Position numbers and translations under genes: made by a program. From a virus: a stretch of 64,000 nucleotides of DNA. Where the stretch lies: positions 32,001 through 96,000 of IMG/VR virus record IMGVR_UViG_3300046471_000128; one strand, given 5' to 3'. The notes beneath the pieces were generated by a model, which was not told the origin of the DNA, searched no databases, and saw nothing but the letters and a program-made list of their open reading frames with translations. Below, piece by piece: positions 38,403 to 59,569 of this stretch. Each line of letters opens with the position of its first letter. Position 1 is the first letter of the stretch.

Positions 38403-38737
38403 TCGACGGGCACGGACGGTAGCTGCGGGGCGCGCCAGCGCCCCTAGCGCCGTCTGCCTGGGCCCGCAGGGCCGCGAGGGTGCGATTCCCCATGTGGACA
38501 CACTCAAAGCCCCACAGCCCCTTCCCCACGTCCCACCTTCCACTTTCCCGCTGCCCCACTCCCCGCTTTGCCACGGCCCTATAAGGATCTCGGATTCGCC
38601 GAGGCCCGGCTGTATAAGGATCGGGTCTGGATCGGAAAAAAATTTCCAACGAGGCCCCACCACTATTGCGCGCCGTTCTAAGACCACCGACGTGCCGCAT
38701 GGTCGGTGATCAGTGGGCGGGGCGGGGTCGGTGCGTC

Positions 38738-38757
38738 CGCCCATCGTTAGATGGGCG
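38738..38757. other. Hairpin at the left edge of the HGGM-free island
   Basis: CGCCCATC GTTA GATGGGCG. Confidence 0.55.
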
Positions 38758-38771
38758 AACTATGACGATAG

Positions 38772-38960
38772 TTAGGTTAGCGTATCAATCGACAGACTGA
38801 ACCGGTCGATTGCATGCGCGTGCATATCGCTCTGTTCGTAAGCGCGCGAATCGTAGCGCGTGGGTTGAAACACTGCATCGAATGCATCGAAGGTTTCACT
38901 GTGCGCACGTTCCCCGTGCTGGGCAATGCGGGCAAAATGAGCGCTCTGCAAGGTTTTCAT
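38772..38960 (-). CDS. Small hypothetical protein in the motif-free island
   Basis: 62-aa ORF starting MKTLQ, downstream of a sigma70 promoter. Confidence 0.55.
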   Translation of the reverse strand: MKTLQSAHFARIAQHGERAHSETFDAFDAVFQPTRYDSRAYEQSDMHAHAIDRFSLSIDTLT

Positions 38961-39024
38961 GGTCTGGTAGGTCGTCAGGTAGCAGGTAGAGAACGCGGGC
39001 GCTTTGTGCGCCCGCTATGCGCGT

Positions 39025-39207
39025 TTAGCGCGACGCGTTCAAGTGAGCACGGGCACGCGCGCGACGCATGCGGGCACGCGTTGCCCGTGTGCGGTGCGGT
39101 GCGTTATTGATGGGTTCGGGCAATGCGTGAAAAGCGAGCACGACAGCAAGCGCGACCAGCAAGACAGACAGCAAGGGTAAAAGGTATTGATTCATCGTTA
39201 GCATCAA
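39025..39207 (-). CDS. Possible small membrane protein
   Basis: Single hydrophobic helix; weak support. Confidence 0.35.
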   Translation of the reverse strand: MMLTMNQYLLPLLSVLLVALAVVLAFHALPEPINNAPHRTRATRARMRRARARAHLNASR

Positions 39208-39261
39208 TCGAAGGGTTAGAAACCCGGGCGCACCGTGCGCCCGGTAAAAGTCACAGGTTCC

Positions 39262-39933
39262 TTATTCTTTCTTCGCGCCCTTTACGAGTGAGAGGGTATC
39301 GCTAGAAGCTTGTTCTACCATCTTTGCAATTGCAGCGACAAAGGGAGATTTAGCATTCACTTCGAGCACTGCGCTTTTACCCTTAACCTTAACCATTTGA
39401 CCCATATTGAGATACTTACAGAAACCATTCACACCGAACGAGCGTGAAACCTTGGTTTCTTCGCTAGTAACACCGACGCCCGGTATCACGCGACGCAGTT
39501 TCGAAACCAGCGACAGGTCTTTAACGATATCGCTAGTCGATTCGTCTCCCTTGCCCGTGTTAGCAAAGTAAAGCGCTTCGCGCGACACTGCGCCCGCATG
39601 CACTGCGCTAAGCAGGGAAAGCGCGGTAACACCGTCAAGCTTGCTGTAGTCTTTCGCATGCAGACAAGCGAAAAATTCTGATACGCGCTTGCAAGCTTTC
39701 ACGCCCATGTTATCTGCAATGGTTGCAAGAAACGTTGTTTCGTCAATGCGCGCTTTTTTCAGCATGCCCGAAGCGAAAACACAAAGCGCGTCATCCCAAT
39801 ATGCGAGAGCGGTTTTGATATCGTCTTGCAAGTGAGCGCTGCCCGTCTTTGTGTTGTAACGATCGTTTGCGCGGTTGAATGCGATTGAAACATTTTCGAG
39901 CGTGAAAATCGTTTCTTTAACTTGTGCGTTCAT
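39262..39933 (-). CDS. Hypothetical protein, candidate immediate-early gene (possible wHTH-like C-terminus)
   Basis: ATG 39933 with AAGGT RBS; canonical sigma70 promoter; atypical codon usage lacking HGGM. Confidence 0.8.
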   Translation of the reverse strand: MNAQVKETIFTLENVSIAFNRANDRYNTKTGSAHLQDDIKTALAYWDDALCVFASGMLKKARIDETTFLATIADNMGVKACKRVSEFFACLHAKDYSKLDGVTALSLLSAVHAGAVSREALYFANTGKGDESTSDIVKDLSLVSKLRRVIPGVGVTSEETKVSRSFGVNGFCKYLNMGQMVKVKGKSAVLEVNAKSPFVAAIAKMVEQASSDTLSLVKGAKKE

Positions 39934-39993
39934 TTTGATTACCTTTGATTGAGTGTTGGTCTGTTTGCCCGGTCTCGCTGAACCGGTAGAGAA

Positions 39994-40022
39994 ATAGTAA
40001 CCGCACACCTAGCCCGGTGCAA
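39994..40022 (-). promoter_or_regulatory. Sigma70-type promoter TTGCAC-N17-TACTAT
   Basis: -35 at 40022-40017 and -10 at 39999-39994. Confidence 0.65.
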
Positions 40023-40260
40023 TAAGTATGCGAAAAAAAACGTATGGCTTTTCTATTCGCGTTGTTTTTCAGAGGAGTGCTTGAAAGGTGTTTTTGACTG
40101 TGCTATTTGCGCGGGCGCACCTGCATGCATGCTCAATAGGGAGCGCGCATATCGAATGCTTAGATAGGGATACGATGTATCGTGGATCTGATTAATCGAT
40201 CATAGGGAGTTCGAACTATGTGATTGTTCGTGGACCCGATTAACCGGTCGTTAGCGGAGC

Positions 40261-40320
40261 GACGCTTCGTGGCCCGACGCTTCGTGGCCCGATGCTTCGT
40301 GGAGCGATGATTCGTGGAAC
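40261..40320. repeat. Four tandem 15-bp repeats GA(C/T)G(C/A)TTCGTGG(A/C)NC
   Basis: Read directly; degenerate copies near 40180 and 40228. Confidence 0.85.
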
Positions 40321-40535
40321 CGATGACCACGGCGCCCAGCGGGCGCCGGTGCCCGAACCGCGCCATCCCTGCCCTGCCCGCAGCCGGTGCCGGTTTCTGC
40401 CAATCCGCCCTTACCTGGCCCGGGTTTTTCCAAAAATTGCCACGGATTTGAACGGAACCCGGGCGCCCGCCCCACAGCAAGCCACGGCACGCCATCCGAG
40501 CGCTTACGGGCACCCAGCCACGGCAGTGTAGAACG

Positions 40536-42235: not shown

Positions 42236-42394
42236 GGGACACCTCGTTGATGGGAGAGACTTCAGTCTCCCGACGAGGCTTCGGATGACACCCGGATACG
42301 TTTGCCCTCACGTGGCCGTGTGATATCACCTGGCCGTGGTAACCCAGGCTGCTTTCGGTCCTCCGATACACTATCCGCACCGGGAGGGCCATCT

Positions 42395-42706
42395 ATGACG
42401 TTGCTCGACTATCTGTCGATCGCCGCCACGCTTATAGGCTTTGCCATCTTTGTCACCCAACTTGTGCTGCTCGAACGCGAGCGCCGGATAACGCTTGCTC
42501 GATTGACCAAGTGGGCTTTGCTCCACGCATCGATTGTCGGCACCGGTCTGAGCGTCCTGATGCTCTCTAAATCATCTCCTTGGCTCATCGAAGATCCTGA
42601 CGCCTCTTCTCCCGTGCGTCTAAACATGCTCTCCACGAAGGATTTCATCGCCTTTGCGGTCATCTATATCTTCGTCGCGTGGCGCTCGTTGAAGTCATTG
42701 GAGTAG
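42395..42706 (+). CDS. Membrane protein with three predicted TM helices
   Basis: GGAGG RBS before ATG 42395; hydrophobic helices; lower GC. Confidence 0.55.
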   Translation: MTLLDYLSIAATLIGFAIFVTQLVLLERERRITLARLTKWALLHASIVGTGLSVLMLSKSSPWLIEDPDASSPVRLNMLSTKDFIAFAVIYIFVAWRSLKSLE

Positions 42707-42771
42707 GCAATCCACGGCGTGCCACGGCAACGAGCACACAAAGAACAACGGGCACACGGCCCGTCATCGGA

Positions 42772-43056
42772 TCAACCGAGGTCGCTGAAGTCGTGCCCGG
42801 AGCAATCGATGATCTCGACACGGCGCACCTGCGCAACCCGGCACTCACCGACGGGGATCATCATGAGGTGCGCCATCAGACGCCCGAACTGCGCTTCGGA
42901 CAGAAAGACAGGCGTCATGTGATACATCGAGCGGAGGTGCGCGTCGACAAAATCCTTCGACTCTTTGAGGCCCATCCCGGTGGTCGCACGGATCAGCTTG
43001 ATGAGCGGAATGCGATCGGTCGTGTTCGATTCGAGATAGGCTTTGATCTTCTTCAT
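42772..43056 (-). CDS. Protein with ribosomal L7/L12 C-terminal-like motif
   Basis: RIPLIKLIRATTGMGLKESKDFVD resembles bL12 [24 protein letters not shown]. Confidence 0.65.
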   Translation of the reverse strand: MKKIKAYLESNTTDRIPLIKLIRATTGMGLKESKDFVDAHLRSMYHMTPVFLSEAQFGRLMAHLMMIPVGECRVAQVRRVEIIDCSGHDFSDLG

Positions 43057-43119
43057 GCTGCGCTCCCTGCGCTGGTTGGTGAGCTTCTATTTTCTCGACC
43101 AACACATGGCCCAGACTTG

Positions 43120-43460
43120 GATACTTATAGGGCGCCAAGGGACTACTTTCCATAGGGCCACCGTCCGCGGCGGGCCAATCTTATACGTGGCAGGTGCCTA
43201 TACTTATACGTAGCACGGGCCAATCTTATAGAGCGCCAGCCGATACTTATACGAGCCACGGCGCGCCTTACGGGCCTGCAGCCACGGCAATTTGGCCAAG
43301 GATTTGAACGGATTCTGGGAGGGTGGCACGCCGCGGCCCTTGCTGGGCTTGGCTTTGAGCGAACATGGCTCGGGTTGGCTTGGCGAGTTCCCATAAGAAA
43401 ATTCTGTGGCGTGTCGATTGAAAGACAATGAAGCGCCGCAACAGCATGGAGCTCTTATAG
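43120..43460. repeat. Phased CTTATA(C/G) repeat array
   Basis: CTTATA at 43124, 43180, 43203, 43225, 43246 and 43454. Confidence 0.8.
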
Positions 43461-43938
43461 AGCCGAAGCGTATGTCTTGTGTCTCCATACCGGATCATCT
43501 ATGTGCATGAGTGTCGTTTAGGGCTTCCCTAGCCGTGATCTCTCTTACGGGATTGTCGTCCTCGGCGTTTCCGCCACAAGCATCATTCTTTCCTTTCTCT
43601 CTACTGGTAAAAGGGTTTGCGCCCGATCTGGTGGTTCGGACTCTAGCGTTGCGCTTCTCAGATCGCTTGGCATCGGGCTTGTTTGCGTTGCGGGTTGTCT
43701 GCTTACCTGTCGGGAAATGGAACGCTCGGCGCGGGCTTAGCGTTCTCTCTGGGCGGGCGTAATGGCGCTGCAATTGGGTCGAAAGTGCGGGCCTTACGGA
43801 AATACGCTAATACTGTTTACTATCAATGACTTACGGGCGTTTCGATCCGTGGCTGTCTCGGGGACGAAATAACACCCTGTATTTCCTAGTTTTCGTGCCG
43901 TTATCATGCGTGCGAATCGGATAACTAGAGGAACGAGA

Positions 43939-44322
43939 ATGCTGAGGAAATGGGTGGTTTGCGGCGCGCTCGCGTGTGCGGCTAGCAGCGCGTCCGCTGC
44001 GAATTGGGTCGTCTTGGATCGACAACCGGATATCACGAAAAGCGTGGATCTCTCTACCGTTGTCGTCAACGGCATCTATCGCAAGGTGTGGGTGCGATCC
44101 GACTACACGAACGGGTTGAAGATGCCAGGCGGGCAGAACATTGGGCAAATATTCTTGCGCTACACGCTGCGCTGCTCGGATCGTGAGTATGCGTCAGGTC
44201 AGCTCATTGCCTATGACCGTGGTGGGCAAATGGTGCATTCGGAAGACGGCGACCCGAACAAGTTCGAGGAAGCGGTGCCGGGCTCATTTGGGGAAGCCAT
44301 GCTTATCTCTCAATGCAAATGA
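43939..44322 (+). CDS. Exported protein (surface-adhesin-E-like)
   Basis: Signal peptide ending ASA-ANW; RKVWVR, Cys, VPGSFGEAM..C motifs. Confidence 0.6.
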   Translation: MLRKWVVCGALACAASSASAANWVVLDRQPDITKSVDLSTVVVNGIYRKVWVRSDYTNGLKMPGGQNIGQIFLRYTLRCSDREYASGQLIAYDRGGQMVHSEDGDPNKFEEAVPGSFGEAMLISQCK

Positions 44323-44335
44323 GACGGCACCGTCG

Positions 44336-44983
44336 CTAGCGCGTGCGGCCCCATCCGAGCGCTGCTGGCCGGCTGTAGTCGGCGAACTTCACCTTGAGCC
44401 AATCCTTTGAGCGACCGCGCTGATACGGCGCGTCGAGTCGCTTGCCTACCATCCCTTCAAAGTCGTGCTGTTTCACCTGATCGAACACCCATGCCCCTGC
44501 CGAGACGACTCCGGTCACGTAGACGAGCACGGCGGTGTTCTCGAATGAGTCGCGCAACAGCTCTTTTCGTTCGACGAGTGGCAGCTGCCTAATGTCGCGC
44601 TCACCATCGGCGAGCATGTCGAACACGTAGAGACGCGCCGGGTGCAGCTTCATGGCGGCGCGCACGCGTGTTGCGACCGATGTGCGGGCACGGATCTGCA
44701 GACGCTCGAACGAGGACTGGCCGGTTGGCTCGTCGACCGTGAGCTCCGCATCCCACACGAAGTTGCCATACACGTTCTCGACCGCCGCGACCACATCAGG
44801 AAACGAGCGATTCATGAGGTTGCCCTGCCGCGAGATCAGCTCGACCCGCGAGCCGACCTTGCGCACCAGACAGCGGAACCCGTCGTATTTAAGTTCGAAC
44901 AGCCAATCCTCACGGGAAAACGGCGCGCGGTTGAGCGTGGCGAGCATCAGGTCGCCCGCGTCGATCAGCGGGATGGCACTCAC
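44336..44983 (-). CDS. ATP-dependent DNA ligase, adenylation domain only (LigD-like)
   Basis: WLFELKYDGFR, DAEL, YVFDML, EGMVGK, WLKVK. Confidence 0.88.
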   Translation of the reverse strand: MSAIPLIDAGDLMLATLNRAPFSREDWLFELKYDGFRCLVRKVGSRVELISRQGNLMNRSFPDVVAAVENVYGNFVWDAELTVDEPTGQSSFERLQIRARTSVATRVRAAMKLHPARLYVFDMLADGERDIRQLPLVERKELLRDSFENTAVLVYVTGVVSAGAWVFDQVKQHDFEGMVGKRLDAPYQRGRSKDWLKVKFADYSRPAALGWGRTR

Positions 44984-45180
44984 AACTTTGAGATCCGCGC
45001 GCTGACGAAGGCGAGCTTCGCCCAGGCATAGGCTTGGGCGCTAACTTCACTGCGATTGCAGCCCGAGTAGGCGCAGAAGTGGTCGAAGTCGTCGAGCACC
45101 GTGTGGCCGTGCTCGTCCGGTGTCAGCGGGCGCGCAGCAAGGATGTCGGCGAGCATTTCGTCTGGATTTCCATAGCACAT
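44980..45180 (-). CDS. Hypothetical protein
   Basis: GGAGG RBS; coupled to the ligase gene. Confidence 0.6.
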   Translation of the reverse strand: MCYGNPDEMLADILAARPLTPDEHGHTVLDDFDHFCAYSGCNRSEVSAQAYAWAKLAFVSARISKL

Positions 45181-45251
45181 GGGAGCCTCCGTGGAGTGTC
45201 AAACCCTTGAGCATAAAGGATTCCCGGTCGCTGGACCGGGAAGCTGGCGCG

Positions 45252-45551
45252 TTACCAGTCGTATTGCGGCAGGTCCGCGACCACGCTCTGATCACAGTCC
45301 ATGCGCAACCACTTGAGGTTGTGCCGGTTGCCCCACTCCATCACTTCGCGCAGGTCCGCCGGCAGGTTCAGTTCGTCGAGCAGGTCGCTCGGCTGCACCC
45401 AGAGGAACCAGCCGTGCTCATACGCGGCGACGATCGTCCACGGGCATTGAGCGTCGCCCTTGTCCAGTTGCTCCGCCGTCTCTCTCGTGACGTGGCACGT
45501 CGAGATCGCTGGGATGATGTCCACGTTGAAAATTTCTACGTTGCTGCTCAT
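45252..45551 (-). CDS. Hypothetical protein (DUF5983-like)
   Basis: ISTCHVT..YEHGWF..WLRMDCD..LPQYDW. Confidence 0.6.
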   Translation of the reverse strand: MSSNVEIFNVDIIPAISTCHVTRETAEQLDKGDAQCPWTIVAAYEHGWFLWVQPSDLLDELNLPADLREVMEWGNRHNLKWLRMDCDQSVVADLPQYDW

Positions 45552-45596
45552 GTGCTTCTCCAAGCTGCGCCCGGGCGCTCGGCCCGGGCTGTGGTG

Positions 45597-46112
45597 TTAT
45601 TCGGGCAGGAGCTCGTCGCTCAGCATTTCGAGCAGCGTCTCGCTGTCATGGCACACCAGCGTGGTGATGTCGTCATCGACCGGCACGCCCGCGTCGCGCA
45701 GAATCTTGAGCACGGTTTGCGCGCGCGCAACGACGTCGGCATCGACCTCATCGTCATCGACGTGTCCGTCTTGCGTCTCGACCAGGCGACGCGCAAAGCA
45801 CACGGCCCACTCTTCGGGCGTGGCGCAGGTGTATTCCCACGGTGACGCACCTGCGGCGCCCATATCGCCCGACAGGTCGAAAACCCACTTGTGGTCAGGA
45901 CCGCGCCCGATGATGACCTTCGCGGCTGCGTAGACCATCGAGACGGACTCGACGCAGATCGCGTGTTTGTGGAACTGGTCGATCACGAACCCGTAGGCGT
46001 CGAGATACAGGTTGTCGAGCGTCTGGTTGGACTCTTGCACGAGCTGCTCGGCGGAGGGCTTGAACTCGGACGTGTCGACAGTCGCGAGGATTTCTTCGTA
46101 GGTGATGGACAT
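45597..46112 (-). CDS. Acidic hypothetical protein
   Basis: ATG 46112 downstream of the promoter element. Confidence 0.65.
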   Translation of the reverse strand: MSITYEEILATVDTSEFKPSAEQLVQESNQTLDNLYLDAYGFVIDQFHKHAICVESVSMVYAAAKVIIGRGPDHKWVFDLSGDMGAAGASPWEYTCATPEEWAVCFARRLVETQDGHVDDDEVDADVVARAQTVLKILRDAGVPVDDDITTLVCHDSETLLEMLSDELLPE

Positions 46113-46132
46113 GGTGTGTCTGGGTGGTTGTG

Positions 46133-46180
46133 GTTGCGATGAAGTCATTCTCCCGACCCGGGTGTGGCCCGGGCCCGGAT
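46133..46180 (-). promoter_or_regulatory. Repeated hairpin-promoter element (representative copy)
   Basis: Plus strand GTTGCGAT..ATTCT-N13-TGGC-N7-CGGAT; about 17 copies between 40.8 and 62.5 kb. Confidence 0.8.
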
Positions 46181-46187
46181 CGGTTGA

Positions 46188-46580
46188 TCAGTGGGCGGAC
46201 GTAAGCATTTCGGGAATGACCATCGGCAAGCTGGTCGAGCACGGCTCGTCGAGATTCAGAATGTCGAACGCTTCGGCGACAGGGCGGCCCGGGTGCGCGT
46301 AGGCGTTCAGCGTCGCGGTCACGCACGCTTCAAGGTGGTCGGCGTCACGGTAGTGCGGCGACACGCCCGCGTCGAAGGATTCGACGATCACCGTGTTCCC
46401 GTGCAGGATCACCTTACCGACGCACGGGATCGGCCCGGTGTGGTCAGGATGCTCGAACTTCACGACCAGGACGACACCACCGTCGGCACGGGTGCGCAGA
46501 CGGTAAAGGCGCGTGTGGTGCACGTTGCGGTAGGCGTGAGCATGGGCACGGCGCTGCTCGGGATTCAGGTTGAGGCTCAT
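46188..46580 (-). CDS. Hypothetical protein
   Basis: ATG 46580 after element 46598-46645. Confidence 0.6.
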   Translation of the reverse strand: MSLNLNPEQRRAHAHAYRNVHHTRLYRLRTRADGGVVLVVKFEHPDHTGPIPCVGKVILHGNTVIVESFDAGVSPHYRDADHLEACVTATLNAYAHPGRPVAEAFDILNLDEPCSTSLPMVIPEMLTSAH

Positions 46581-46621
46581 GATGTTTCTCATGTGTCGTT
46601 TCGATAGACACAGTTTCCCGA

Positions 46622-46918
46622 TCACGCACTGGCGCGCTGTCGGATCGTTTGTGCGGTGTGCGGCACCGGGTAGCGGGCGACCAGCCACTCGGTGAACTGC
46701 TGTTGTTCGGCGAACCCCATCTCTGCTCGGACCGTTGCGTGCACATCGCACCAGAGCTTCGCCTGGTGGCCGATCCAGTAGACATAGGGCCGCGTGTGGT
46801 GCGTGCCGTAGCGCGCCATGTCCTTCGCAAGCTGCTCCGCCGGCGACCCTGCCCCGTGCGCGATACAGTAGGCGGCGTAGCGCGGCGTCGCGCCCTTGAA
46901 CGGGCCGCGCGCGATCAC
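46622..46918 (-). CDS. Hypothetical protein
   Basis: Coupled ORF. Confidence 0.55.
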   Translation of the reverse strand: MIARGPFKGATPRYAAYCIAHGAGSPAEQLAKDMARYGTHHTRPYVYWIGHQAKLWCDVHATVRAEMGFAEQQQFTEWLVARYPVPHTAQTIRQRASA

Positions 46919-47181
46919 CAGCAGACCTCGATCTGTTCCACCTGCTCGGGGTCGATGAGGACATGGCGCCCGGTGGGTGCGAGATCGGCATCAGGGCGGG
47001 GCTCCCACAGCTCCAGCTCCAGCAGCAGCCCGCCTTTGTGCACGCGCATTTCGCCGCCGTAGACCGAGCCGTGCACCTGCCGACCCGAGCGCAGCCACAG
47101 GTTCACGGTGTAGCCGTTCCCGTCGTTCTTCTCGTCGTTCGCGTCAGCGAGCGCGTAGGCAACGATCGTGCGCCCGCTCAT
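46915..47181 (-). CDS. Small Sm/LSm-like beta protein
   Basis: VNLWLRSGRQVHGSV..VLIDPEQVEQIE. Confidence 0.5.
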   Translation of the reverse strand: MSGRTIVAYALADANDEKNDGNGYTVNLWLRSGRQVHGSVYGGEMRVHKGGLLLELELWEPRPDADLAPTGRHVLIDPEQVEQIEVCW

Positions 47182-47468
47182 CGTTGGCTATCCTTCACCG
47201 CTGCGTCGAGCTCGCGCACGGCGGCCGCCAGCCCGCTGCTGCCCTCTTCTATCGCGCCCACGACCTTAATCGCGGCGGCGCGCAGGTTGTCCAGTTTGTC
47301 GCCCTGCTTGTTCATCTTCAGGACCGCATCGAACGGTGCTTCGGAAAGCTGCGCTTGGATGCCCTGATTGTTGAACTCGTTCGAGAGGAACGAGAACATG
47401 TCGAATTCCCGGTCCTGCCCGTAGTTCGTGTCGGCGGGGCGAATGAGGATGGTGTGAATCTTGGGCAT
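47178..47468 (-). CDS. Hypothetical protein
   Basis: After element 47484-47531. Confidence 0.6.
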   Translation of the reverse strand: MPKIHTILIRPADTNYGQDREFDMFSFLSNEFNNQGIQAQLSEAPFDAVLKMNKQGDKLDNLRAAAIKVVGAIEEGSSGLAAAVRELDAAVKDSQR

Positions 47469-47558
47469 GGTTGGTGTCCCGTGGTTGCGATGTGTTCAGT
47501 GTCCCGACCGATCGTTGGACCGGTCGCGGCTTTCGTTACGGGTGACTTATTCGCCCGC

Positions 47559-48071
47559 TTATTGCGCGCCCCCGAGCCCGATGGCGATCGAGATACGCTC
47601 GTCGGACACCAGCGCGCGAATCCGCTTGGCGACCATATCGGGCGTGACGAGCGGAATGCCGTCGTCAAACATGACATCTGGCTCGTCATCGTATGATTCC
47701 GCGTTGAACAGGTATTGAGCCCATGAGTCATTCAGACCGAAGAAGTTCTCGATGGCGGCCCAGCCCTCACGGCCCTCGTAAAATGGCTGCGCGTGCCGCG
47801 CGCCCCAGACCGGAACGACCAGCTTGAGCCCTTGGGATTGGAACTCGGGCATCAAGGCGGCGTGCCCGCACGCGCACGCGGCGGCACCACACTGCACCTT
47901 GACGGGATCGACCACGATGGACTTGGCACCACCGAGCAGCTGGACAACTTCTCCCGTGGAGGGCAGATCCGCAGGCGCTTTCAACCAGTGGTCGAGGTGG
48001 AATGCGGCGGGCGCTGCGAATGTCTGCTGCTCAAGCACAGTGGCGAGCAGCTCAAGGCGTTCGATGTTCAT
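47559..48071 (-). CDS. Hypothetical protein, CGxxAC family (paralog of 59570..59977)
   Basis: CGAAACACGHAALMPEFQSQGL. Confidence 0.7.
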   Translation of the reverse strand: MNIERLELLATVLEQQTFAAPAAFHLDHWLKAPADLPSTGEVVQLLGGAKSIVVDPVKVQCGAAACACGHAALMPEFQSQGLKLVVPVWGARHAQPFYEGREGWAAIENFFGLNDSWAQYLFNAESYDDEPDVMFDDGIPLVTPDMVAKRIRALVSDERISIAIGLGGAQ

Positions 48072-48099
48072 GTTTGTGTGTGTGGTTGGTTGCGACAGG

Positions 48100-48513
48100 T
48101 CAATTGTCGTGATCGTCTGCTGGCGTGTGCACGTCGGTGCGTGGATGGTTTTCGAAAATCTGCTGCGGCGTGCCGCGGTAGTCGTCGAAGCGGCTAATCT
48201 CGCGACGGCAGTCCGAGCAGTAGAAGGCGCGCATCGGGCGGTTCCACCACTTCACGTCCTCACCGCGCGTCTCACATGCCGTGACGTTGCACTTGCCGCC
48301 GAACTGGCCCTTGCCGGTCTGATCGATGTGCCCATACGGATCGTCGGGCAGCTCGCGCGGCGCACGGAGAACGTCCGCGACCGCCTGGATCTGTTCCCGC
48401 GACGGCATGCGGCCGCGCGCACCGGGATAGACGCGATTCAAGGACACGCGCTGCGTCGTGTTCAGGGACGGTGCCGTCTTCATGAGACGGCGTTCTTTCT
48501 TGGTCAGGTGCAT
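48100..48513 (-). CDS. Hypothetical protein with Cys cluster
   Basis: KGQFGGKCNVTAC..YCSDC. Confidence 0.6.
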   Translation of the reverse strand: MHLTKKERRLMKTAPSLNTTQRVSLNRVYPGARGRMPSREQIQAVADVLRAPRELPDDPYGHIDQTGKGQFGGKCNVTACETRGEDVKWWNRPMRAFYCSDCRREISRFDDYRGTPQQIFENHPRTDVHTPADDHDN

Positions 48514-48704
48514 CGAGCGCTCCATCCCCGCCCGTCGAATCCGAGCGAGTCGTCAAAGTAGTTATCGTCCACGAAGCGCACAGCGGCGAACCACTGCGCG
48601 TCCGATTCGAGGTGGACCGTGTTGCCGAAGTCATCGACCGTCGTGCCGCTTAGCGCGATGGCGAACGGCATGGGTCGTGCGGAATTGAAGTGAATCAGGC
48701 GCAT
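48504..48704 (-). CDS. Hypothetical protein
   Basis: GGAG RBS; coupled ORF. Confidence 0.45.
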   Translation of the reverse strand: MRLIHFNSARPMPFAIALSGTTVDDFGNTVHLESDAQWFAAVRFVDDNYFDDSLGFDGRGWSARCT

Positions 48705-49009
48705 GGCGCGCTCCAGTTGATGTTGGAGTAGCCCTCGCCGAACATCGCGACCAGGCGGTCGTGTTGCTCTTCGTCGAGCGGCAGCTTCCAGCGCATCACC
48801 GCCGTCAGATAAATCTCCTGCGCGTTCTCGGTCATTTCCTCGAAGCACGAACCCATGCTCGGGCGGAACTGGATTCGATGGAGCTGCACGCCGCACGACT
48901 CGCGGCGGCGCTGATTGCTCGGGCGCTCCCGCAACCAGCCGCCCATGTTGTAGTCCGACTCGAGGATCGAGTAGGCTTCGCAGATGTCAAAGCGATCCCA
49001 AGTCGCCAT
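48695..49009 (-). CDS. Hypothetical protein
   Basis: MATWDRFDICEAY; TGATG overlap with upstream gene. Confidence 0.6.
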   Translation of the reverse strand: MATWDRFDICEAYSILESDYNMGGWLRERPSNQRRRESCGVQLHRIQFRPSMGSCFEEMTENAQEIYLTAVMRWKLPLDEEQHDRLVAMFGEGYSNINWSAPCA

Positions 49010-49341
49010 CAGAGCGTCTCCCACTTCGTGTCGCCAACCTTCCGATACTGCATGGTCGTGCAGCCCGCGTGCCCTTCGGCCCAATCGAGCGGCTCGAACG
49101 CCGTTTCTTGAATAGCGTCGTGCAGGTCAACACAGCGGCCCGTGTAGTAGAGCTCGGCGTCGTCATCGAGCAACTGGAACTCGAAGTTGAAGCGCTCGCT
49201 GTGGAGCGTGATGAATTGGTCAACCGCGTCGCGGCGCCGCAGCGGATCGCGGATCGCAACCAGCGGCGAGTTGCGGTTGTCGTAGCGGCCCGTGCCCACC
49301 TGGCCGTCGGAGATGTGGTCCTTTGTGATGATCCACTGCAT
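49009..49341 (-). CDS. Hypothetical protein
   Basis: MQWIITKDH..FQLLDDDAELYYTG..AGCT; after element 49360-49408. Confidence 0.65.
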   Translation of the reverse strand: MQWIITKDHISDGQVGTGRYDNRNSPLVAIRDPLRRRDAVDQFITLHSERFNFEFQLLDDDAELYYTGRCVDLHDAIQETAFEPLDWAEGHAGCTTMQYRKVGDTKWETL

Positions 49342-49407
49342 GTTGCGCTCCCTGTGCGCGTTGTCGATATGAAGATTGTCCCGACCGGGCATTGGCGCCC
49401 GGTTGGA

Positions 49408-49614
49408 TTAGTCACTGCCCCACTTGCGATCCTCTGCGATCTCCGCGAGGGCCATCTCCTGCACGCGATCAAGATCGGCTTGCAGGGCGCGACGCCGGCG
49501 ACGGGCGCGCAGGATCATGCGCAAGATGTTCTTGGCGTGGGCCTCAGTCATATCGTCAACCGCGATGCGACGGCCGTCTTGACAGCGCCAGATTTCGTCG
49601 GGTGGCGTGCTCAT
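49408..49614 (-). CDS. Hypothetical protein
   Basis: WRCQDGRRIAVDDMTEAHAKNILRM. Confidence 0.6.
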   Translation of the reverse strand: MSTPPDEIWRCQDGRRIAVDDMTEAHAKNILRMILRARRRRRALQADLDRVQEMALAEIAEDRKWGSD

Positions 49615-50084
49615 GCCGGCACGCTGACGGGCCAATGCCATTCGCCCGAGGTCACCGCGGCGGGATTCGGGGCGTTCCGCTCATTCTTGAGAATGTCGCG
49701 CATCCTGTCGCCGAAGCTGAAAAGGCTATAGGCGCGGTTCGACAGGAAGTCGAAGTCGCTCTGGATCACGCGGGCGACGCCGATCTCCAACCCTGTCATG
49801 GCTTCGAAGTTTTCAGGACCGATCGCGTGCGCCAGCCCGTGAACGTCCAGTCTGTTGTAGCGGGCGTTCACGATTTGATCCAACTGCTCATCGGTGAAGA
49901 ACGTGCCGATCGCGCACACGCACGTCGAAATGGTTGGGGTGACCCGGGCGCTGCGATAGCGCCCGTGTGCCCGGGTGCCGATGCGGCCCGTCGAGAGGTC
50001 GTGCAGGATCTTCTTGATGGCGTCGTGACGCGTGGCGGGCACGACGAAACCATTGACGCGGATCAGGTTGTAAGGACGGGTCAT
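49611..50084 (-). CDS. Hypothetical protein
   Basis: Coupled ORF with CAIG motif. Confidence 0.6.
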   Translation of the reverse strand: MTRPYNLIRVNGFVVPATRHDAIKKILHDLSTGRIGTRAHGRYRSARVTPTISTCVCAIGTFFTDEQLDQIVNARYNRLDVHGLAHAIGPENFEAMTGLEIGVARVIQSDFDFLSNRAYSLFSFGDRMRDILKNERNAPNPAAVTSGEWHWPVSVPA

Positions 50085-50275
50085 TGCTGTCTCATGTTCA
50101 GACTGTTCGATGACGGGAGCACGTAGCCCCCGAGCTTTTCCATTGCCTTGTAGGCGTCGTCGGACGTGTGGAACCGCTCGACCGAGGTGAGGCGCCCGGG
50201 CGCGTCATCGACGCGCGTCCACAGCGTGTCGTGCCACAGGGGCATCGGGTTCTGCTGCTGGTGCCAGGTGCTCAT
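50081..50275 (-). CDS. Hypothetical protein
   Basis: Coupled ORF from ATG 50275. Confidence 0.5.
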   Translation of the reverse strand: MSTWHQQQNPMPLWHDTLWTRVDDAPGRLTSVERFHTSDDAYKAMEKLGGYVLPSSNSLNMRQQ

Positions 50276-50511
50276 GTGCCACCCGACTTGAACGACCAGC
50301 AGGACCAGCCCTTGCCGTCGGTCATCTGCACGATCACGCGGCCCGCATCGGCGCGCGTGAACGCGTAGCTCCGATGGTTGTGCCCGAGGTAGTGCAGCCG
50401 CGTCGCGCCCGCGTCGTCGGCTTCGACCTCGAACTCTTGGTGGAAGGTGGTCGAATAGCCACCCCATGCGTTGCGCGCGACGACGCGCGTCGGCTCGGTG
50501 AGCTTTCTCAT
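50272..50511 (-). CDS. Hypothetical protein
   Basis: Coupled ORF. Confidence 0.55.
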   Translation of the reverse strand: MRKLTEPTRVVARNAWGGYSTTFHQEFEVEADDAGATRLHYLGHNHRSYAFTRADAGRVIVQMTDGKGWSCWSFKSGGT

Positions 50512-51053
50512 GCCGTCTCCTTCTGCTTGCCGCGCTTCTTGAGAGTGTCGGCGACCAGATCCCCGATCACGTCGAGGAAGCGCGCGCCCTGCTTCGGATC
50601 GAGTTGCGGCAGCCCGAAGATCCCGTCCGCGAGCAGGTCACCGTCGCGGTCGCGCGGCCCTTGGTTGAACGTGCGCTCAGCGAACACCGTGCGAATGCCC
50701 GATGCGACCAGCACCCGGCGCGCGAACTCGGCGAAGTTGTTGTCGGGCACATAGCCGAGCTCGAGCTCCATCTTCTTGAGCTTGCGGGCAATGCCGGTCA
50801 TCACCTTCATCGTGGCTTCGAGCTCGTCCATCTCGACGTAAGGACCGGGCTCGCGCATGGCGAACTTGGTGGCGTAGCTGTAGTCCCATTCACCGTTGAC
50901 CGAGGTGCGGATCACAAGGTCGGTGGAGAAGAGATACCCTTGCGCGCTCTTGACCAGGCGGCGCAGCTGGATCTCGATGTGTGCGTAGCCCGGCGTGCTC
51001 TCACGAGCGCAGGCGTAGGCATACGGGGCATCGTTCTTAGCGGTCGGAAACAT
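50508..51053 (-). CDS. Hypothetical protein
   Basis: ATG 51053 after element 51071-51118. Confidence 0.65.
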   Translation of the reverse strand: MFPTAKNDAPYAYACARESTPGYAHIEIQLRRLVKSAQGYLFSTDLVIRTSVNGEWDYSYATKFAMREPGPYVEMDELEATMKVMTGIARKLKKMELELGYVPDNNFAEFARRVLVASGIRTVFAERTFNQGPRDRDGDLLADGIFGLPQLDPKQGARFLDVIGDLVADTLKKRGKQKETA

Positions 51054-51419
51054 GGTCGTTTCTCTGTGTGGTTGCGATGAATTCATTTTCCCGAGCGCCC
51101 GTAGGCGCATCGGTGGACTTATTTCGCATGGGTTTTACTGGCTGGTTGCGGTGAAGTAAATTGTGCTCGCGCCCCTTTGGCAAGCTAAGTTACCGCTTAT
51201 TTATCCATTATAGCCACGCGGAAAGATCGGGCGCGTGAAAACGTGCAAGATGTTGCGCGATTTGTGCAACTTTTTACCGGGGGTGCCGAACCCTTGCCTA
51301 CCCGTAGATAGACGGTCGGTGCTGTGGGAAGGGTAATTTTGGGCGCGGTGGCCCGCCCGAGGGCGCCGTGGCAGCGCGCGGGCACGAACAAAGCGGGCCG
51401 AAGCCCGCTTCGCTGACGG

Positions 51420-52505
51420 TCATTCAGCCGCCGTCGTTTCTTCCGCCGTCACTTCTTCGACGACCGGCTCTTCAACCGTCGGCTCTTCAACCGTCGGCTC
51501 TTCAACCGTCGGCTCGACGGTCGGTTCTTCCGCAACCGGTTCTTCGGGCAGCGGTTCGCTTGCCGGGTTCATCGCTTGCTGCGCCATCATGAGGAACAGC
51601 GAGTTCGGGTTGGGAACAAATTCGCCCTTGCCCGTCTGGACGATCATCTTCGTCTTCTCCATCACCGTCACCGTGTTGCGGCCCATCGCGCGCGCAGCGC
51701 TCGGGCTATACGGCTTGCTCAGCAGGTTCTTGTGGAGGTTCCCGTTGTCGCCCGTCTGGATCTTCCCGTCGGCGGCGAGCACGTCGAGGGCACGCTTGAA
51801 AATCTCGTTCGGCTTGTTCGTTTTGCCCGACAACCAGTCCATCAGGAGCGAGGCGCGATTCTTGACCTTGACGGACATCGCGTCGATCACCGCGAGCGTC
51901 TCGTCCTGCTTCGCTTTCAGCGCATCGCCCTCCAGCCCAGCGTCAGCGATCTCCAGCACGAGGTAGTCACCGAGCGACGCACCCAGGCGCGCTACGATGC
52001 GATCCGTCTTGTTCTGGTAGTGCGTGCGCGGGGCGCGGACCTTCTTCGCTGCTGCGGCGGTGGGCTCTGCTGCGCTCATTTCGGTCGCAAGCGCTTCTTC
52101 GGCGAGCAGACGCTCTTTCTCGGCTTCTTCGTCCGTGACGCCCTCGTGGGCAGGCGCATCAGCGGGCACCAGCGCGTAGGCTTCTTGCACTTCGATGTTG
52201 GCGAGCGCAGCTTCGAGCGCTTCCCCGTGCGCTTCTTCGGACGGGAGTGCGGACTCGGCTGCGACTTCGAGCAACGGCGGCACGTCGAGAACTTCGACCG
52301 TCCCGGAGTCGAGCAGGACTTCTTCGCTCGATTCGACCAGTGCGGCGACCGACGCTTCGAACGTCTCGACCGGCGCTGCGCCCATGTTCGGCTCGCCCAG
52401 CACATCGAGGAGCGCTGCGAGTTCGGGGTCCATCGGGGCTGCTTCGCTCGCGCCCAGCATGTTGATGTTGAGGACGGCTGCGACTGCGTTTTTCTTGGCG
52501 TTCAT
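51420..52505 (-). CDS. Acidic protein with wHTH-like core and EEPTV repeats
   Basis: AGGAGAG RBS before ATG 52505; two promoter elements upstream; tandem 15-bp repeats at 51460-51530. Confidence 0.75.
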   Translation of the reverse strand: MNAKKNAVAAVLNINMLGASEAAPMDPELAALLDVLGEPNMGAAPVETFEASVAALVESSEEVLLDSGTVEVLDVPPLLEVAAESALPSEEAHGEALEAALANIEVQEAYALVPADAPAHEGVTDEEAEKERLLAEEALATEMSAAEPTAAAAKKVRAPRTHYQNKTDRIVARLGASLGDYLVLEIADAGLEGDALKAKQDETLAVIDAMSVKVKNRASLLMDWLSGKTNKPNEIFKRALDVLAADGKIQTGDNGNLHKNLLSKPYSPSAARAMGRNTVTVMEKTKMIVQTGKGEFVPNPNSLFLMMAQQAMNPASEPLPEEPVAEEPTVEPTVEEPTVEEPTVEEPVVEEVTAEETTAAE

Positions 52506-52803
52506 GATGCTCTCCTGAGTGAGATTGGGTAACGCGTTCATCGCGTCAGATTCAATTTTGTCGATCAGGTAGAGGCGCGTATCGCATGAGTCAGGATCGT
52601 TTCTCTGCCCGGTCTGGGTGTCGTGCACTGCATCGACTAGAGAAATTCTAGGGAGCGGGTTGTGGCGTAAATCCTGTGCGTTTGGATATGTGCTTGCTAG
52701 AAAGAAAGGTGCGCGCGCCCGCGCGAATAGCACCGGGCTTCTGGCTCGGGCCCGGAAAATAGAAAGGGCGCCCGAAGGCGCCCTGTCATGGGGTTGGAGG
52801 CTA

Positions 52804-53055
52804 TCACCAGCTACCCGCCAATTCGCTGCCAATCTCCGCGATCCGTGCCCGCGACTTGCGGTCGTCCACTTCCTCACTTGAGTTCTGGTAAAGGGCTTCG
52901 GCGACGTTCGAACGGATCACGGCCGTCACCCCGGGCATCTCCGCGCACACGAAGCGCTCGGCGGCGTAGTGACTCAGTTCTCGCTCCTCTGCGGCGAGCC
53001 ATGCGAAGAAGGCGTCCCGCATCGTCGCTGCCAATTCATCGCACTCCGTCATCAC
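52804..53055 (-). CDS. Hypothetical protein
   Basis: Coupled ORF ending LAGSW, as does its neighbour. Confidence 0.5.
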   Translation of the reverse strand: MMTECDELAATMRDAFFAWLAAEERELSHYAAERFVCAEMPGVTAVIRSNVAEALYQNSSEEVDDRKSRARIAEIGSELAGSW

Positions 53056-53528
53056 CAGCTCCCCGCCAGGTCTGCAATGTCCTCGTCCATCCCGCGTGTG
53101 TCGGGCACATCGGGCGGGGGTGGCACGAGAATGTTGCCCTTCTCGACGAACTGGCGCCCGCTCTCACCCCTGCTTGAGGGCAGCCATTCGCAGTCGGCGT
53201 AGCGCACGAGGATGTCCTCGTAGGCGTCGATCGCCTCCTGCTCGGTGCGAAACTCGCGCGTCGCCTGCGGATCGGGTGAGCGCCGCGGTGCGTCGAGCGG
53301 ACGGCCCTCGCCATCGGTCGTGACGATGTTCTCGACGTCCAGACGGTAGAGCTTCCAGTGCTGCTTCGGAATCGTTTTGGCGTTCTTCTGGAAGCCAAGC
53401 CACTCGCAGGTGACGCGGATCTTTTCGTTCTCGAACTCCCGGAAGAACCGGTAGGCGTGATTTTTTTGCAGCGCTACCCACGCTGCCTGCGTGATCGAGC
53501 CGCCATCTCTGTTGACGAATGCGAGCAT
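53052..53528 (-). CDS. Hypothetical protein
   Basis: AGGA RBS; phage codon usage. Confidence 0.65.
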   Translation of the reverse strand: MLAFVNRDGGSITQAAWVALQKNHAYRFFREFENEKIRVTCEWLGFQKNAKTIPKQHWKLYRLDVENIVTTDGEGRPLDAPRRSPDPQATREFRTEQEAIDAYEDILVRYADCEWLPSSRGESGRQFVEKGNILVPPPPDVPDTRGMDEDIADLAGSW

Positions 53529-53531
53529 GTC

Positions 53532-53699
53532 CTACTCCTGAAAGACGTTGAATCGCTGTCCACAGGCCGGCCGCAGACATTGCTCTTCGGTGTGATCCTC
53601 ATGGGACGCGAGCCAGTCGGTGCGCGCGCCACAAAACGAGCAGGTTGTCGGCTGCTCGTCGGCGATAAGGTTGATCGGTGGTTCGTTTTCTCGGCTCAT
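53532..53699 (-). CDS. Small zinc-ribbon protein (55 aa)
   Basis: PTTCSFCGART..QCLRPACG; ATGA overlap. Confidence 0.55.
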   Translation of the reverse strand: MSRENEPPINLIADEQPTTCSFCGARTDWLASHEDHTEEQCLRPACGQRFNVFQE

Positions 53700-54046
53700 A
53701 GTCCTTTGGCGAACGTGACGGGCACGCCCGCTTCCTTTGCTTGTCCCACCATGTTGAGGGTGCCCCGTCCACCGGGCAGCGCGAACACATGGTCGGGTTT
53801 GCCCTCGCGGAGCATCTGCGCATTGCGTGTCGGCCCAGCGGCGTTACGCAAGCGCGACCAGTCGGCGGGGAACCGCACAAATTCGATTCCCCGCGCGACT
53901 GCCCATTCTTCCCCGATGGTGTCGGCACCGCGCGCTGCACCGTGGATCACGAGGGTCACGGTGTGCGCACGGGCGAACCGATCGAGCTTGGCGAACGCCC
54001 ACTCCCGCTCGTCGAAGTCTCGGCCGCCGCAGATCAGTAGACGCAT
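53696..54046 (-). CDS. SLOG family (DUF2493/YspA-like) nucleotide-binding protein
   Basis: MRLLICGGRDF..VIHGAARGAD..AGPTRNAQML..PGGRGT. Confidence 0.85.
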   Translation of the reverse strand: MRLLICGGRDFDEREWAFAKLDRFARAHTVTLVIHGAARGADTIGEEWAVARGIEFVRFPADWSRLRNAAGPTRNAQMLREGKPDHVFALPGGRGTLNMVGQAKEAGVPVTFAKGL

Positions 54047-54055
54047 GGTCGCTCC

Positions 54056-54607
54056 TTACTTCGCCGCGACGCGCAGGCTCGGCGGCTGCTCGCCCACCGT
54101 GCCCGACGGATCGATCTGCGCCATCGCCTCGCCCTTCACGAGCCGGTGGCGCGTGAGGATGATGCGGACCTTCGGATCGACTTCGGCCAGGATCTCGAGC
54201 GCGGCGGCGCGCAGCTCGGCGGCGTTAGCCGGGTCCGATGCAGCGGCTTGCTGGACGCGCTCGAACGTGCGCAGGAATCGGCAGGTGTCGTCGAACTTCG
54301 GCGCACCGCCCGATACCGAGAAGCCCGGCCCGCCTACCGCGACCCCAGCCGTCCCGCCGCAATAGTCCGACGAGAACGAGCCCGCGAACCCGCTGACGAC
54401 CGCCTGACCCGTCGTGCGCGCGGTGTAGGAGCCAGAGTAGTGCTGGTCGCCCGGATTGTTGAACACGATCTGCTGCGCATTCCCGGCGTTGTTCGCGCCC
54501 GCAGTGGATGCGGTGCTCGCCAAGCTGGTCGAGTCCACTGCGGTCTGTGCGTGTGCCGAGACAGCGGCGACCAGGAGCAGCGATGCAAAGACTGCCTTTA
54601 GTTTCAT
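54056..54607 (-). CDS. Exported protein with paired Cys
   Basis: Signal peptide ending AHA-Q; SSDYCGG..DDTCR. Confidence 0.7.
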   Translation of the reverse strand: MKLKAVFASLLLVAAVSAHAQTAVDSTSLASTASTAGANNAGNAQQIVFNNPGDQHYSGSYTARTTGQAVVSGFAGSFSSDYCGGTAGVAVGGPGFSVSGGAPKFDDTCRFLRTFERVQQAAASDPANAAELRAAALEILAEVDPKVRIILTRHRLVKGEAMAQIDPSGTVGEQPPSLRVAAK

Positions 54608-54684
54608 GGAATCAAGCTCCTCAAAAAGATTGCCCCGGCCGAAGCCGGGGCTCTTGTTATGTGACGGCCCCCTTCGCGCTGCTC

Positions 54685-55167: not shown

Positions 55168-55321
55168 GTTTTAGAACTCCTCAATTTGTATGTCCGGAAC
55201 CCGCCGGACGCGGTTTGTTTAAACCTGCCCGGTATCGCTTCGTTTTCTGCGTTGCGTTACCGTATTAGTATTCTGACTTGCGATTCTTGGCGTCGTTTTG
55301 GATCATTGCGACGCGTTCAAA

Positions 55322-59478: not shown

Positions 59479-59569
59479 AAGAACCTCACATTTAATAACT
59501 GTTCGCTTACTTATTATAGCGCCCGCTCTTTGGCGGGCACGTTTTAGAACTAATGGGCGATCTTGCGTT

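What the first reader, a model, noticed from the sequence alone, without database searches (positions are those of the whole stretch)
38740..40182. 1.4-kb island almost devoid of the tetranucleotide HGGM/KCCD
Seen: reading 38740-40182 base by base, GG followed by A or C occurs essentially only when preceded by G (GGGC, GGGA; on the other strand GCCC, TCCC), while GGT/ACC is common. I found 3 HGGM/KCCD hits: TCCT at ~39259, TGGC at 40045 and AGGA at 40073. Uniform composition predicts about 65 (0.75 x 0.25 x 0.25 x 0.5 x 2 strands x 1440). The rest of the window is full of GCCG, CGGC and TGGC. The avoidance shapes the coding sequence: the 223-aa gene uses GCC or GGC only in GCCC/GGGC contexts, and its one Trp codon is followed by G. 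The edges are sharp (hairpin at 38738; TCGTGG array from 40180). The island holds a canonical sigma70 promoter. Inference: this is a first-injected or immediate-early segment that must stay free of a motif-specific DNA mark, binding protein or nuclease, loosely analogous to restriction-site-poor first-step-transfer DNA of T5 but for a degenerate 4-mer.
Basis: partly seen in the sequence, partly recalled or inferred. Interest (0 to 1): 0.92.

Follow-up and report, generated by a model that had tools for sequence, protein, structure and literature searches.

The report
Gene cassette purged of one DNA word
One small gene cassette of this 107-kb soil phage, and of dozens of distant relatives, is written almost without a four-letter DNA word (core GG/CC) that occurs every 16 bases elsewhere and forms the phage's own promoter boxes, so something unidentified reads that word and must be kept off this cassette.

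Summary
Window 38737-40182 holds 3 HGGM/KCCD words. About 92 are expected from the genome, 62 from the island's own dinucleotide make-up, and no other 1446-bp window has fewer than 63.

GGGM, HGGG and HGGT stay at background and both strands are purged, so the constraint is on DNA and is word-specific.

The void is family-wide. It lies at the same place downstream of a conserved helicase in 35 non-redundant relatives (GC 41-67%), including isolated Pseudomonas phage nickie and Rhizobium phages RHEph10 and B1VFA. Pooled, HGGM is seen 11 times against 2488 expected.

Lineages use nested "dialects": HGGM only, then GGV, then every GG/CC. In the last, the encoded proteins have no or almost no Gly, Pro or Trp.

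32 of 35 voids encode one uncharacterised ~200-270 aa family with a weak winged-helix match.

The void is read from a conserved -35/-10 promoter. The phage's other early promoters replace the -35 with two KCCD boxes (10/10 and 9/10 copies).

A DNA mark, nick or nuclease remains possible. First injection is untested.

This scan has noted the same phenomenon before on other DNA.

The parts
38737..40182 (.). HGGM/KCCD void: 3 sites in 1446 bp, 51% GC against 62% for the genome
39262..39933 (-). 223-aa gene of an uncharacterised phage protein family (called F here). Its C-terminal half gives a weak winged-helix match. The conserved core reads roughly STxxTQxSS.
   Evidence: Homologues. AlphaFold model pLDDT 83. 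Winged-helix matches at Z 5.5-6.5. Family found in 32 of 35 voids. Motif. No Pfam, PHROG or NCBIfam hit.
39994..40040 (-). Conserved host-type promoter: T-tract at 40040-40033, -35 TTGCAC at 40022-40017, a 17-nt spacer, and -10 TACTAT at 39999-39994
   Evidence: Alignment of five relatives' upstream regions; sequence read
39223..39244 (-). GC-rich hairpin after the F stop codon, with a weak T-tail; probable terminator
   Evidence: D4/I1
39025..39207 (-). Small ORF (about 56-60 aa) with a hydrophobic N-terminal segment. No relative was detected in the fetched loci.
38772..38960 (-). 62-aa ORF, conserved at 34-49% identity inside the voids of relatives
38735..38760 (.). Hairpin at the low-coordinate edge of the void
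   Evidence: I12
40174..40324 (.). Array of six TTCGTGG-type repeats immediately upstream of the cassette. The central four are in a 15-bp register. Each repeat carries one KCCD word.
   Evidence: D1-D3
42240..60060 (-). Ten copies of the phage-specific promoter: TCCR-N7-GCCA-N8-TCGGGAnAAT-N8-ATCGCAACC. Core starts are at 42273, 43098, 46156, 46621, 47507, 48112, 49384, 51094, 56603 and 60032. This is context for the void, not part of it.

Best explanation
The cassette is the phage's factor-independent start-up unit. Unmodified host RNA polymerase reads it from an ordinary -35/-10 promoter. It encodes a probable winged-helix DNA-binding protein (F) plus one or two small proteins.

Elsewhere, the phage's early promoters have no -35. 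They carry two KCCD words one helical turn apart, centred near -28 and -39, often in or beside a hairpin loop. I infer that F, or a complex containing it, reads this short word, docks on phased copies of it (the promoter boxes and the TTCGTGG array upstream of its own gene), and redirects or represses transcription there.

Selection has therefore removed every copy on both strands, from upstream of the promoter to the terminators.

Shown: the purge, its conservation, its nested dialects, the two promoter classes and the protein family.
For: - The purge is absolute and word-specific on both strands, including intergenic DNA, the promoter and the terminators.
- It is conserved in 35 non-redundant relatives with 47-84% helicase identity and 41-67% GC. 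Pooled, HGGM is 11 observed against 2488 expected. It is also present in isolated phages nickie, RHEph10 and B1VFA.
- 32 of 35 voids encode the same protein family in the same orientation. All of the top 50 structural matches but a few are winged-helix regulators (MarR, PadR, ArsR) at Z 5.5-6.5.
- In this genome, all 10 copies of the early-promoter core carry KCCD at -12 and 9 of 10 carry it at -23 from the core. The background is about 3% per position.
- A relative with 52% helicase identity (L029) has the same architecture. TCCW, GCCT or CCCA sits at the -30 box in 8 of 8 copies. Its two in-void promoters keep the same -10 and initial transcribed sequence but use TTGCAT as a -35 instead of the box.
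- In the dialect that also bans CCC, the boxes include CCC words. In a lineage that bans all GG/CC (L057), the docking arrays include ACCATGG.
- A phased direct-repeat array carrying the word sits directly upstream of the cassette. This resembles StbA and its stbDR repeats (bioRxiv 10.1101/2022.04.29.490116).
- No methylase or DpdA is present to write a mark.
Against: - A reader that needs two phased boxes should tolerate isolated words, yet every single copy is removed. That looks more like an enzyme or a tight single-site block.
- The rest of the phage genome carries 63 words per kb and is presumably expressed, so the model must explain why only this unit is sensitive.
- The winged-helix match is weak (Z below 8). 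DNA binding by F is not shown.
- For nickie, RHEph10 and B1VFA, the void protein shows no detectable sequence similarity to F.
- The box-to-dialect correlation rests on a few lineages inspected by eye.
- The timing of expression is inferred from promoter type alone.
Confidence: 0.4

Rival explanations
1. Exemption from a covalent mark or nick. Virion DNA carries a modification, or strand breaks, at HGGM (GG in other lineages). These would be written late by an uncharacterised phage enzyme, for example the ParB-like nuclease/ABC ATPase/thioredoxin module beside the terminase. Marked DNA cannot be read by naive host RNA polymerase. The word-free cassette is the only template usable at once, and its product then unlocks the marked promoters.
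For: - Removal of single sites on both strands across whole transcription units fits an enzyme acting at every site.
- The same word sits in the promoter boxes, as expected if the mark times promoter use.
- A conserved ParB_N x2 / ABC ATPase / thioredoxin module lies next to the packaging genes in all relatives.
- T5-like phages carry site-specific nicks in virion DNA (PMC10644984).
Against: - No C5, N4/N6 methylase or TGT/DpdA family is found in the complete genome.
- No GNAT is seen in the operon, and one member is Tad2-like, which suggests anti-defence rather than DNA chemistry.
- No modification data exist.
- A mark every 16 bp that blocks polymerase is unprecedented.
Confidence: 0.22
2. 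Immunity of first-expressed DNA to a nuclease that reads a short word, as in T5 first-step-transfer DNA. A phage-borne host-DNA-degrading nuclease, or a host defence, cuts at HGGM/GG. The cassette lies in the DNA that enters first and must survive while the rest is still outside or is protected later.
For: - A single cut would kill the unit, which explains the absolute purge.
- Relatives package with long direct terminal repeats, like T5 (PMC12509600, PMC11256456).
- T5 resists restriction only if sites are absent from its first-step-transfer region, and how it spares its own DNA is unknown (PMC10644984).
- Enzymes that read three letters exist (Nt.CviPII at CCD; own knowledge).
Against: - The position of the void relative to the physical ends is unknown. 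In the GenBank records of nickie, RHEph10 and B1VFA it is not at a record end.
- It does not explain why the purged word is also the invariant core of the promoter boxes.
- The rest of the genome has normal word density and no known protection.
- Hosts span alpha-, beta- and gamma-proteobacteria, so a shared host nuclease is unlikely.
Confidence: 0.13
3. A composition artefact: a foreign low-GC insert, codon or amino-acid bias, a hypermutation footprint, an RNA-level constraint or CRISPR PAM avoidance.
For: The island is 11 GC points below the genome. A CC/GG PAM is used by type I-F CRISPR systems (own knowledge).
Against: - The island's own dinucleotide model still predicts 62 sites.
- GGGM, HGGG and HGGT are at background.
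- Both strands and non-coding DNA are purged, which excludes RNA or codon effects.
- ORFs are intact and conserved across 35 divergent lineages of 41-67% GC, which excludes a one-off insert or hypermutation.
- PAM avoidance in one kilobase cannot protect a 107-kb genome, and HGGM is not a known PAM.
Confidence: 0.03

Closest known systems
First-step-transfer (pre-early) DNA of phage T5/BF23
   Same: A small, host-promoter-driven gene set whose freedom from recognition sites decides survival. T5 resists R-M, CRISPR and Ssp systems only if their sites are absent from the first-step-transfer region (PMC10644984). The phage is also large, siphovirus-like, and has long terminal repeats in relatives.
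   Different: T5's region lacks ordinary 5-7 bp sites largely by chance or weak selection. Here a 2-4 nt word expected 60-150 times per kb is removed completely, at the cost of Gly, Pro and Trp in some lineages. A terminal location and two-step injection are not shown.
T4 MotA-dependent middle promoters (own knowledge)
   Same: A sigma70-type -10 with the -35 replaced by an activator box about 12 bp upstream. An early gene read from ordinary promoters supplies the activator.
   Different: There are two boxes with a 4-nt core one helical turn apart, often in a hairpin loop. No MotA or AsiA homologue was detected. T4 shows no purge of the box word from motA.
StbA and stbDR repeats of plasmid R388 (bioRxiv 10.1101/2022.04.29.490116)
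   Same: A small protein with a PadR-like HTH binds phased direct repeats upstream of its own operon, cooperatively, to repress transcription and organise DNA. F's best structural matches include PadR and MarR proteins. A 15-bp-register repeat array sits upstream of its gene.
   Different: No sequence similarity was found. F's HTH-like part is C-terminal. No word-free gene is known for StbA.
Genome-wide restriction-site avoidance
   Same: Selection removes a recognition word from phage DNA. This same genome has 0 GTAC against 169 expected and 0 CCATGG against 20.5 expected.
   Different: That avoidance is genome-wide and palindromic. The HGGM purge is local to 1.4 kb, non-palindromic and degenerate, and the word is at normal density everywhere else.
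Chlorella-virus Nt.CviPII / M.CviPII, recognising CCD (own knowledge)
   Same: This viral enzyme pair reads a three-letter word almost identical to KCCD, showing that proteins can act on such short words.
   Different: No methylase family is present here. No local void is described for chloroviruses.

Membership tests
T5-type first-step-transfer region | Lies in the terminal repeat at the end of the DNA that enters first | not testable with these tools
   The source is a metagenome held only as contigs. The 127-bp end overlap is an assembly feature. Relatives have long DTRs, but their position is not given (PMC12509600, PMC11256456).
T5-type first-step-transfer region | Host-type promoters, expressed before the other phage genes | tested here: inconclusive
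   There is a conserved TTGCAC-N17-TACTAT promoter with a T-tract, against a box-type promoter class elsewhere. No expression data exist.
T5-type first-step-transfer region | Free of sites for the relevant nuclease or reader | tested here: met
   3 HGGM sites against 62-96 expected
Classical restriction-site avoidance | A palindromic 4-6 bp site depleted across the whole genome | tested here: not met
   HGGM is at 63 per kb genome-wide, as composition predicts. Only 38737-40182 is purged. GTAC does meet this feature.
Motif-specific base modification (methylase or DpdA type) | A writer enzyme encoded by the phage | tested here: not met
   PF00145, PF01555 and PF01702 give no match in the complete genome, and the control genomes respond. 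Unknown enzyme classes are not excluded.
Activator-dependent (MotA-like) promoter cascade | A -10 element with a box near -30 in place of the -35 | tested here: met
   Ten copies carry KCCD 12 bp upstream of the core (10/10) and a second copy 11 bp further upstream (9/10). The layout is the same in L029.
Activator-dependent (MotA-like) promoter cascade | The activator binds the box and RNA polymerase | not testable with these tools
   F is only a candidate. Winged-helix matches are at Z 5.5-6.5.
StbA / PadR-like repeat-binding regulators | PadR-type winged HTH domain | tested here: inconclusive
   VIA-align top hits include PadR, MarR and ArsR at Z 5.5-6.5, rmsd 3-6 A, over 80-100 residues. 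Foldseek against PDB gives nothing. A profile search of PDB gives nothing.
StbA / PadR-like repeat-binding regulators | Phased direct repeats upstream of its own operon | tested here: met
   TTCGTGG repeats at 40174-40324, the central four spaced 15 bp apart

The most novel reading that the evidence does not exclude
A whole superfamily of large siphophages and phage-plasmids of proteobacteria runs its gene expression on an undescribed DNA reader with only 2-4 nt of specificity (core GG/CC, in lineage-specific dialects). The ban is strong enough to rewrite its proteins in a 17-letter alphabet without Gly, Pro or Trp.
Probability: 0.35. Interest if true: 0.9.

Novelty: new variant of a known kind. 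Interest (0 to 1): 0.85.

Why it matters
Avoidance of recognition words is a classic signature of what attacks or reads phage DNA. The known cases concern 4-8 bp sites and whole genomes. Here a word expected every 8-16 bp is banned absolutely from one transcription unit, across phages of alpha-, beta- and gamma-proteobacteria, and it reshapes the amino-acid content of proteins.

This points to an unidentified molecular reader, whether a regulator, a mark or a nuclease.

The void also offers:
- a simple sequence diagnostic for the family's first-expressed cassette;
- a natural experiment in protein evolution without Gly, Pro or Trp.

Tried and rejected
- The island's DNA and the 223-aa protein have no match in the phage or plasmid collections or in genome contigs.
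- Pfam, PHROGs and NCBIfam give nothing for the three cassette proteins. A PDB profile search gives nothing. Foldseek against PDB gives nothing below E 0.8. The Atlas gives only unnamed phage clusters.
- BLASTP and hhalign do not link the nickie, RHEph10 or B1VFA void proteins to the family. Only a Foldseek BFVD hit to 188-aa and 194-aa phage proteins (TM about 0.5) hints at a shared fold.
- Broad family alignments were too diverse for the search for related loci, so I anchored on the helicase instead.
- Contig ends are not enriched near the void, so they give no clue to termini.
- Only contig-level runs hold the sequence. Read laying was not used because contigs cannot show ends.
- No normally encoded paralogue of F exists in this genome.
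- The promoter core of this genome is rare in the short early regions fetched for close relatives, so the promoter class is documented only here and in L029.
- Repeated words in nickie's early region turned out to be coding.
- A literature search for a described motif-free early gene found nothing relevant.

Full report
**Observation**

A scripted count finds exactly three HGGM/KCCD words between the flanking hits at 38736 and 40183, at 39259, 40045 and 40073. The window averages 63.8 per kb. The two site-free gaps are 523 and 786 bp. The next-largest gap in the whole genome is 191 bp. That genome is a single 107,509-bp virus record, 62% GC, rated complete.

Markov simulations expect 94-96 sites from genome statistics and 62.5 from the island's own dinucleotides. 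Even the island's own trinucleotides predict 22.1. None of 2000 runs reached 3 or fewer, and no other 1446-bp window has fewer than 63.

The depletion is confined to the six words AGGA, AGGC, CGGA, CGGC, TGGA and TGGC and their complements. GGGA, GGGC, NGGG and NGGT are at background. Both strands are purged, as are the promoter, the intergenic DNA and the terminator hairpins. The constraint therefore acts on double-stranded DNA, not on codons or mRNA.

**Anatomy**

All cassette genes lie on the minus strand.
- A conserved promoter comes first: a T-tract, TTGCAC, a 17-nt spacer, then TACTAT. It is followed by a strong ribosome-binding site.
- Next is a 223-aa gene at 39262-39933, followed by a GC hairpin.
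- Then come a short hydrophobic ORF, a second hairpin, and a 62-aa ORF that relatives conserve inside their own voids.
- Directly upstream of the promoter lies an array of TTCGTGG repeats, partly in a 15-bp register.

The promoter matches only 7 of 12 consensus positions, so 'canonical' is too strong. It is, however, conserved across relatives.

**The phage**

Flanking genes place the phage with Rhizobium phage RHEph10 and Pseudomonas phage nickie. These are 105-122 kb siphophages, some called phage-plasmids. They share a helicase and a ParB/ParB/ABC-ATPase module next to the terminase.

**Conservation**

Five IMG/VR loci encode the 223-aa protein at 71-75% identity. Three of them show gaps of 1006-1521 bp, and two closely related ones show a leaky void.

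RHEph10, nickie and B1VFA have a void at the syntenic place. There, essentially every GG/CC dinucleotide is missing. Nickie has 1137 bp with none, against about 120 per kb around it.

Anchoring on the helicase retrieved 80 further loci out of 280 relatives.
- 43 of 84 loci, and 35 after removing near-duplicates, hold an HGGM gap of at least 700 bp. It always lies a few kb downstream of the helicase.
- The genomes range from 41 to 67% GC. The void is always 4-25 points lower.
- Many of the remaining loci are simply too short, and several show partial voids at the same place.
- Pooled, HGGM is seen 11 times against 2488 expected.

Three nested dialects appear:
- HGGM only, as here;
- GGV, where only GGT after a non-G survives;
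- all GG/CC.

Protein composition follows the dialect. Void proteins have 6-21 Gly in the first dialect, 3-6 in the second and 0-4 in the third. Nickie gp019 has no Gly, Pro or Trp.

This same genome also shows ordinary genome-wide site avoidance: 0 GTAC against 169 expected and 0 CCATGG against 20.5. That underlines how different the local purge is.

**The encoded protein**

The 223-aa protein has no Pfam, PHROG or NCBIfam match. It belongs to a family with 79 clusters at 50% identity among 1.8 billion proteins.

Iterative search finds a member in 32 of 35 voids, always in the same orientation. Nickie, RHEph10 and B1VFA carry a protein of similar size without detectable sequence similarity. 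In RHEph10 the annotated gp097 is a shadow ORF, and the plausible gene is on the other strand.

The AlphaFold model has a mean pLDDT of 83. It has no Foldseek match in PDB. A full structural scan aligns residues of about 94-216 to MarR, PadR and ArsR winged-helix regulators at Z 5.5-6.5. These matches are consistent but weak. The family-wide conserved core (roughly STxxTQxSS, then R..L) lies just upstream of the predicted beta-hairpin wing, which is where a recognition helix would be expected.

**Link to the phage's own promoters**

Following a note on this window, I checked the early region. Ten minus-strand copies of a core TCGGGAnAAT, a -10-like element, are followed by a conserved ATCGCAACC. 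All ten have KCCD 12 bp upstream of the core, and nine have a second KCCD 11 bp further upstream. The background is 3% per position. In eight of the ten, a stable hairpin with varying stem sequence holds the proximal box in or beside its loop.

The layout is a -10 plus a box about 12 bp upstream and no -35. This is the layout of activator-dependent promoters such as T4 middle promoters (own knowledge).

A relative with only 52% helicase identity (L029, 46% GC) has the same architecture. Its two promoters inside the void keep the same -10 and initial transcribed sequence, but carry TTGCAT at -35 instead of the box.

So the banned word is the word that something reads at the phage's own promoters. 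The void is the unit that does without it. In lineages whose ban is wider, the box or array words are wider too: CCC words in L029 and ACCATGG arrays in L057. I inspected this only by eye.

**Mechanism**

The best-supported reading (about 0.4) is a bootstrap cassette. Host polymerase reads it unaided.

The main weakness is that a cooperative reader should tolerate isolated words, yet every copy is removed. That favours an agent acting at single sites.

The rivals:
- A covalent mark or nick at the word (about 0.22). It explains single-site removal and the promoter link. It lacks a writer: there is no C5, N4/N6 methylase or DpdA. The ParB/ABC operon shows thioredoxin, ABC, ParB_N and Tad2-like domains, but no GNAT.
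- A short-word nuclease with T5-like first-step DNA (about 0.13). It fits the absolute purge and the long terminal repeats of relatives (PMC12509600, PMC11256456, PMC10644984). It does not explain the promoter link, and the void's position relative to the ends is unknown.
- Composition, hypermutation, RNA-level and PAM explanations are contradicted.

**Limits**

- No expression, modification or terminus data could be obtained. The source is a rhizosphere metagenome kept as contigs.
- Earlier notes of this scan describe the same kind of void on other DNA, including an HGGM dialect. They also gave the StbA lead (bioRxiv 10.1101/2022.04.29.490116). I treated these as leads only. Their claims that the void sits at a DNA tip and has a normally written paralogue were either not testable or not found here.

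Noticed in passing
window 42240-60060, minus strand: A phage-specific promoter class in ten copies: TCCR-N7-GCCA-N8-TCGGGAnAAT-N8-ATCGCAACC. In eight of the ten, a hairpin with varying stem sequence encloses the proximal box. Lineage L029 has the same layout.
   Followed up: partly
whole genome (G000): GTAC is absent (0 against 169 expected). CCATGG (0 against 20.5), CACGTG (1 against 30), TGGCCA, AGGCCT, GGATCC and AGATCT are strongly depleted. This is ordinary genome-wide restriction-site avoidance. GTAC is also absent from the RHEph10 and B1VFA stretches, but not from nickie.
   Followed up: partly
window 38737-40182 and the voids of close relatives: GATC is also depleted in the HGGM-dialect voids: 0-1 sites against 7-12 expected from the flanks. 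Pooled over four voids it is 3 sites against about 14 from a Markov model. In the flanks GATC is over-represented. The depletion is not clear in nickie or RHEph10.
   Followed up: partly
L006 15258-15938 (RHEph10 gp097): The annotated 226-aa CDS looks like a shadow ORF rich in Cys, Arg and Leu. The plausible gene is on the opposite strand (L006 15282-15848, 188 aa), with its own promoter, ribosome-binding site and terminator.
   Followed up: partly
window 33214-33576, minus strand: A Tad2-like (Thoeris anti-defence 2, DUF2829) domain protein sits inside the ParB/ABC/thioredoxin operon next to the packaging genes. This suggests the operon may serve counter-defence rather than DNA modification.
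   Followed up: no
G000:C1:8489-8677, minus strand (outside the window): A weak sigma70 region-2 match (E 8e-4, below the cut-off) lies in a 245-aa ORF. It may be a phage sigma factor.
   Followed up: no
window 38574-38622: Two copies of a TATAAGGATC element lie just beyond the low edge of the void. Related CCTATAAGG elements are repeated many times near the voids of L079, L080 and L059.
   Followed up: no
L057, about 16.3-21.6 kb: Dense arrays of CCATGG-type sites lie in the early region of a lineage that bans all GG/CC in its void. The same hexamer is completely absent from the genome studied here.
   Followed up: no
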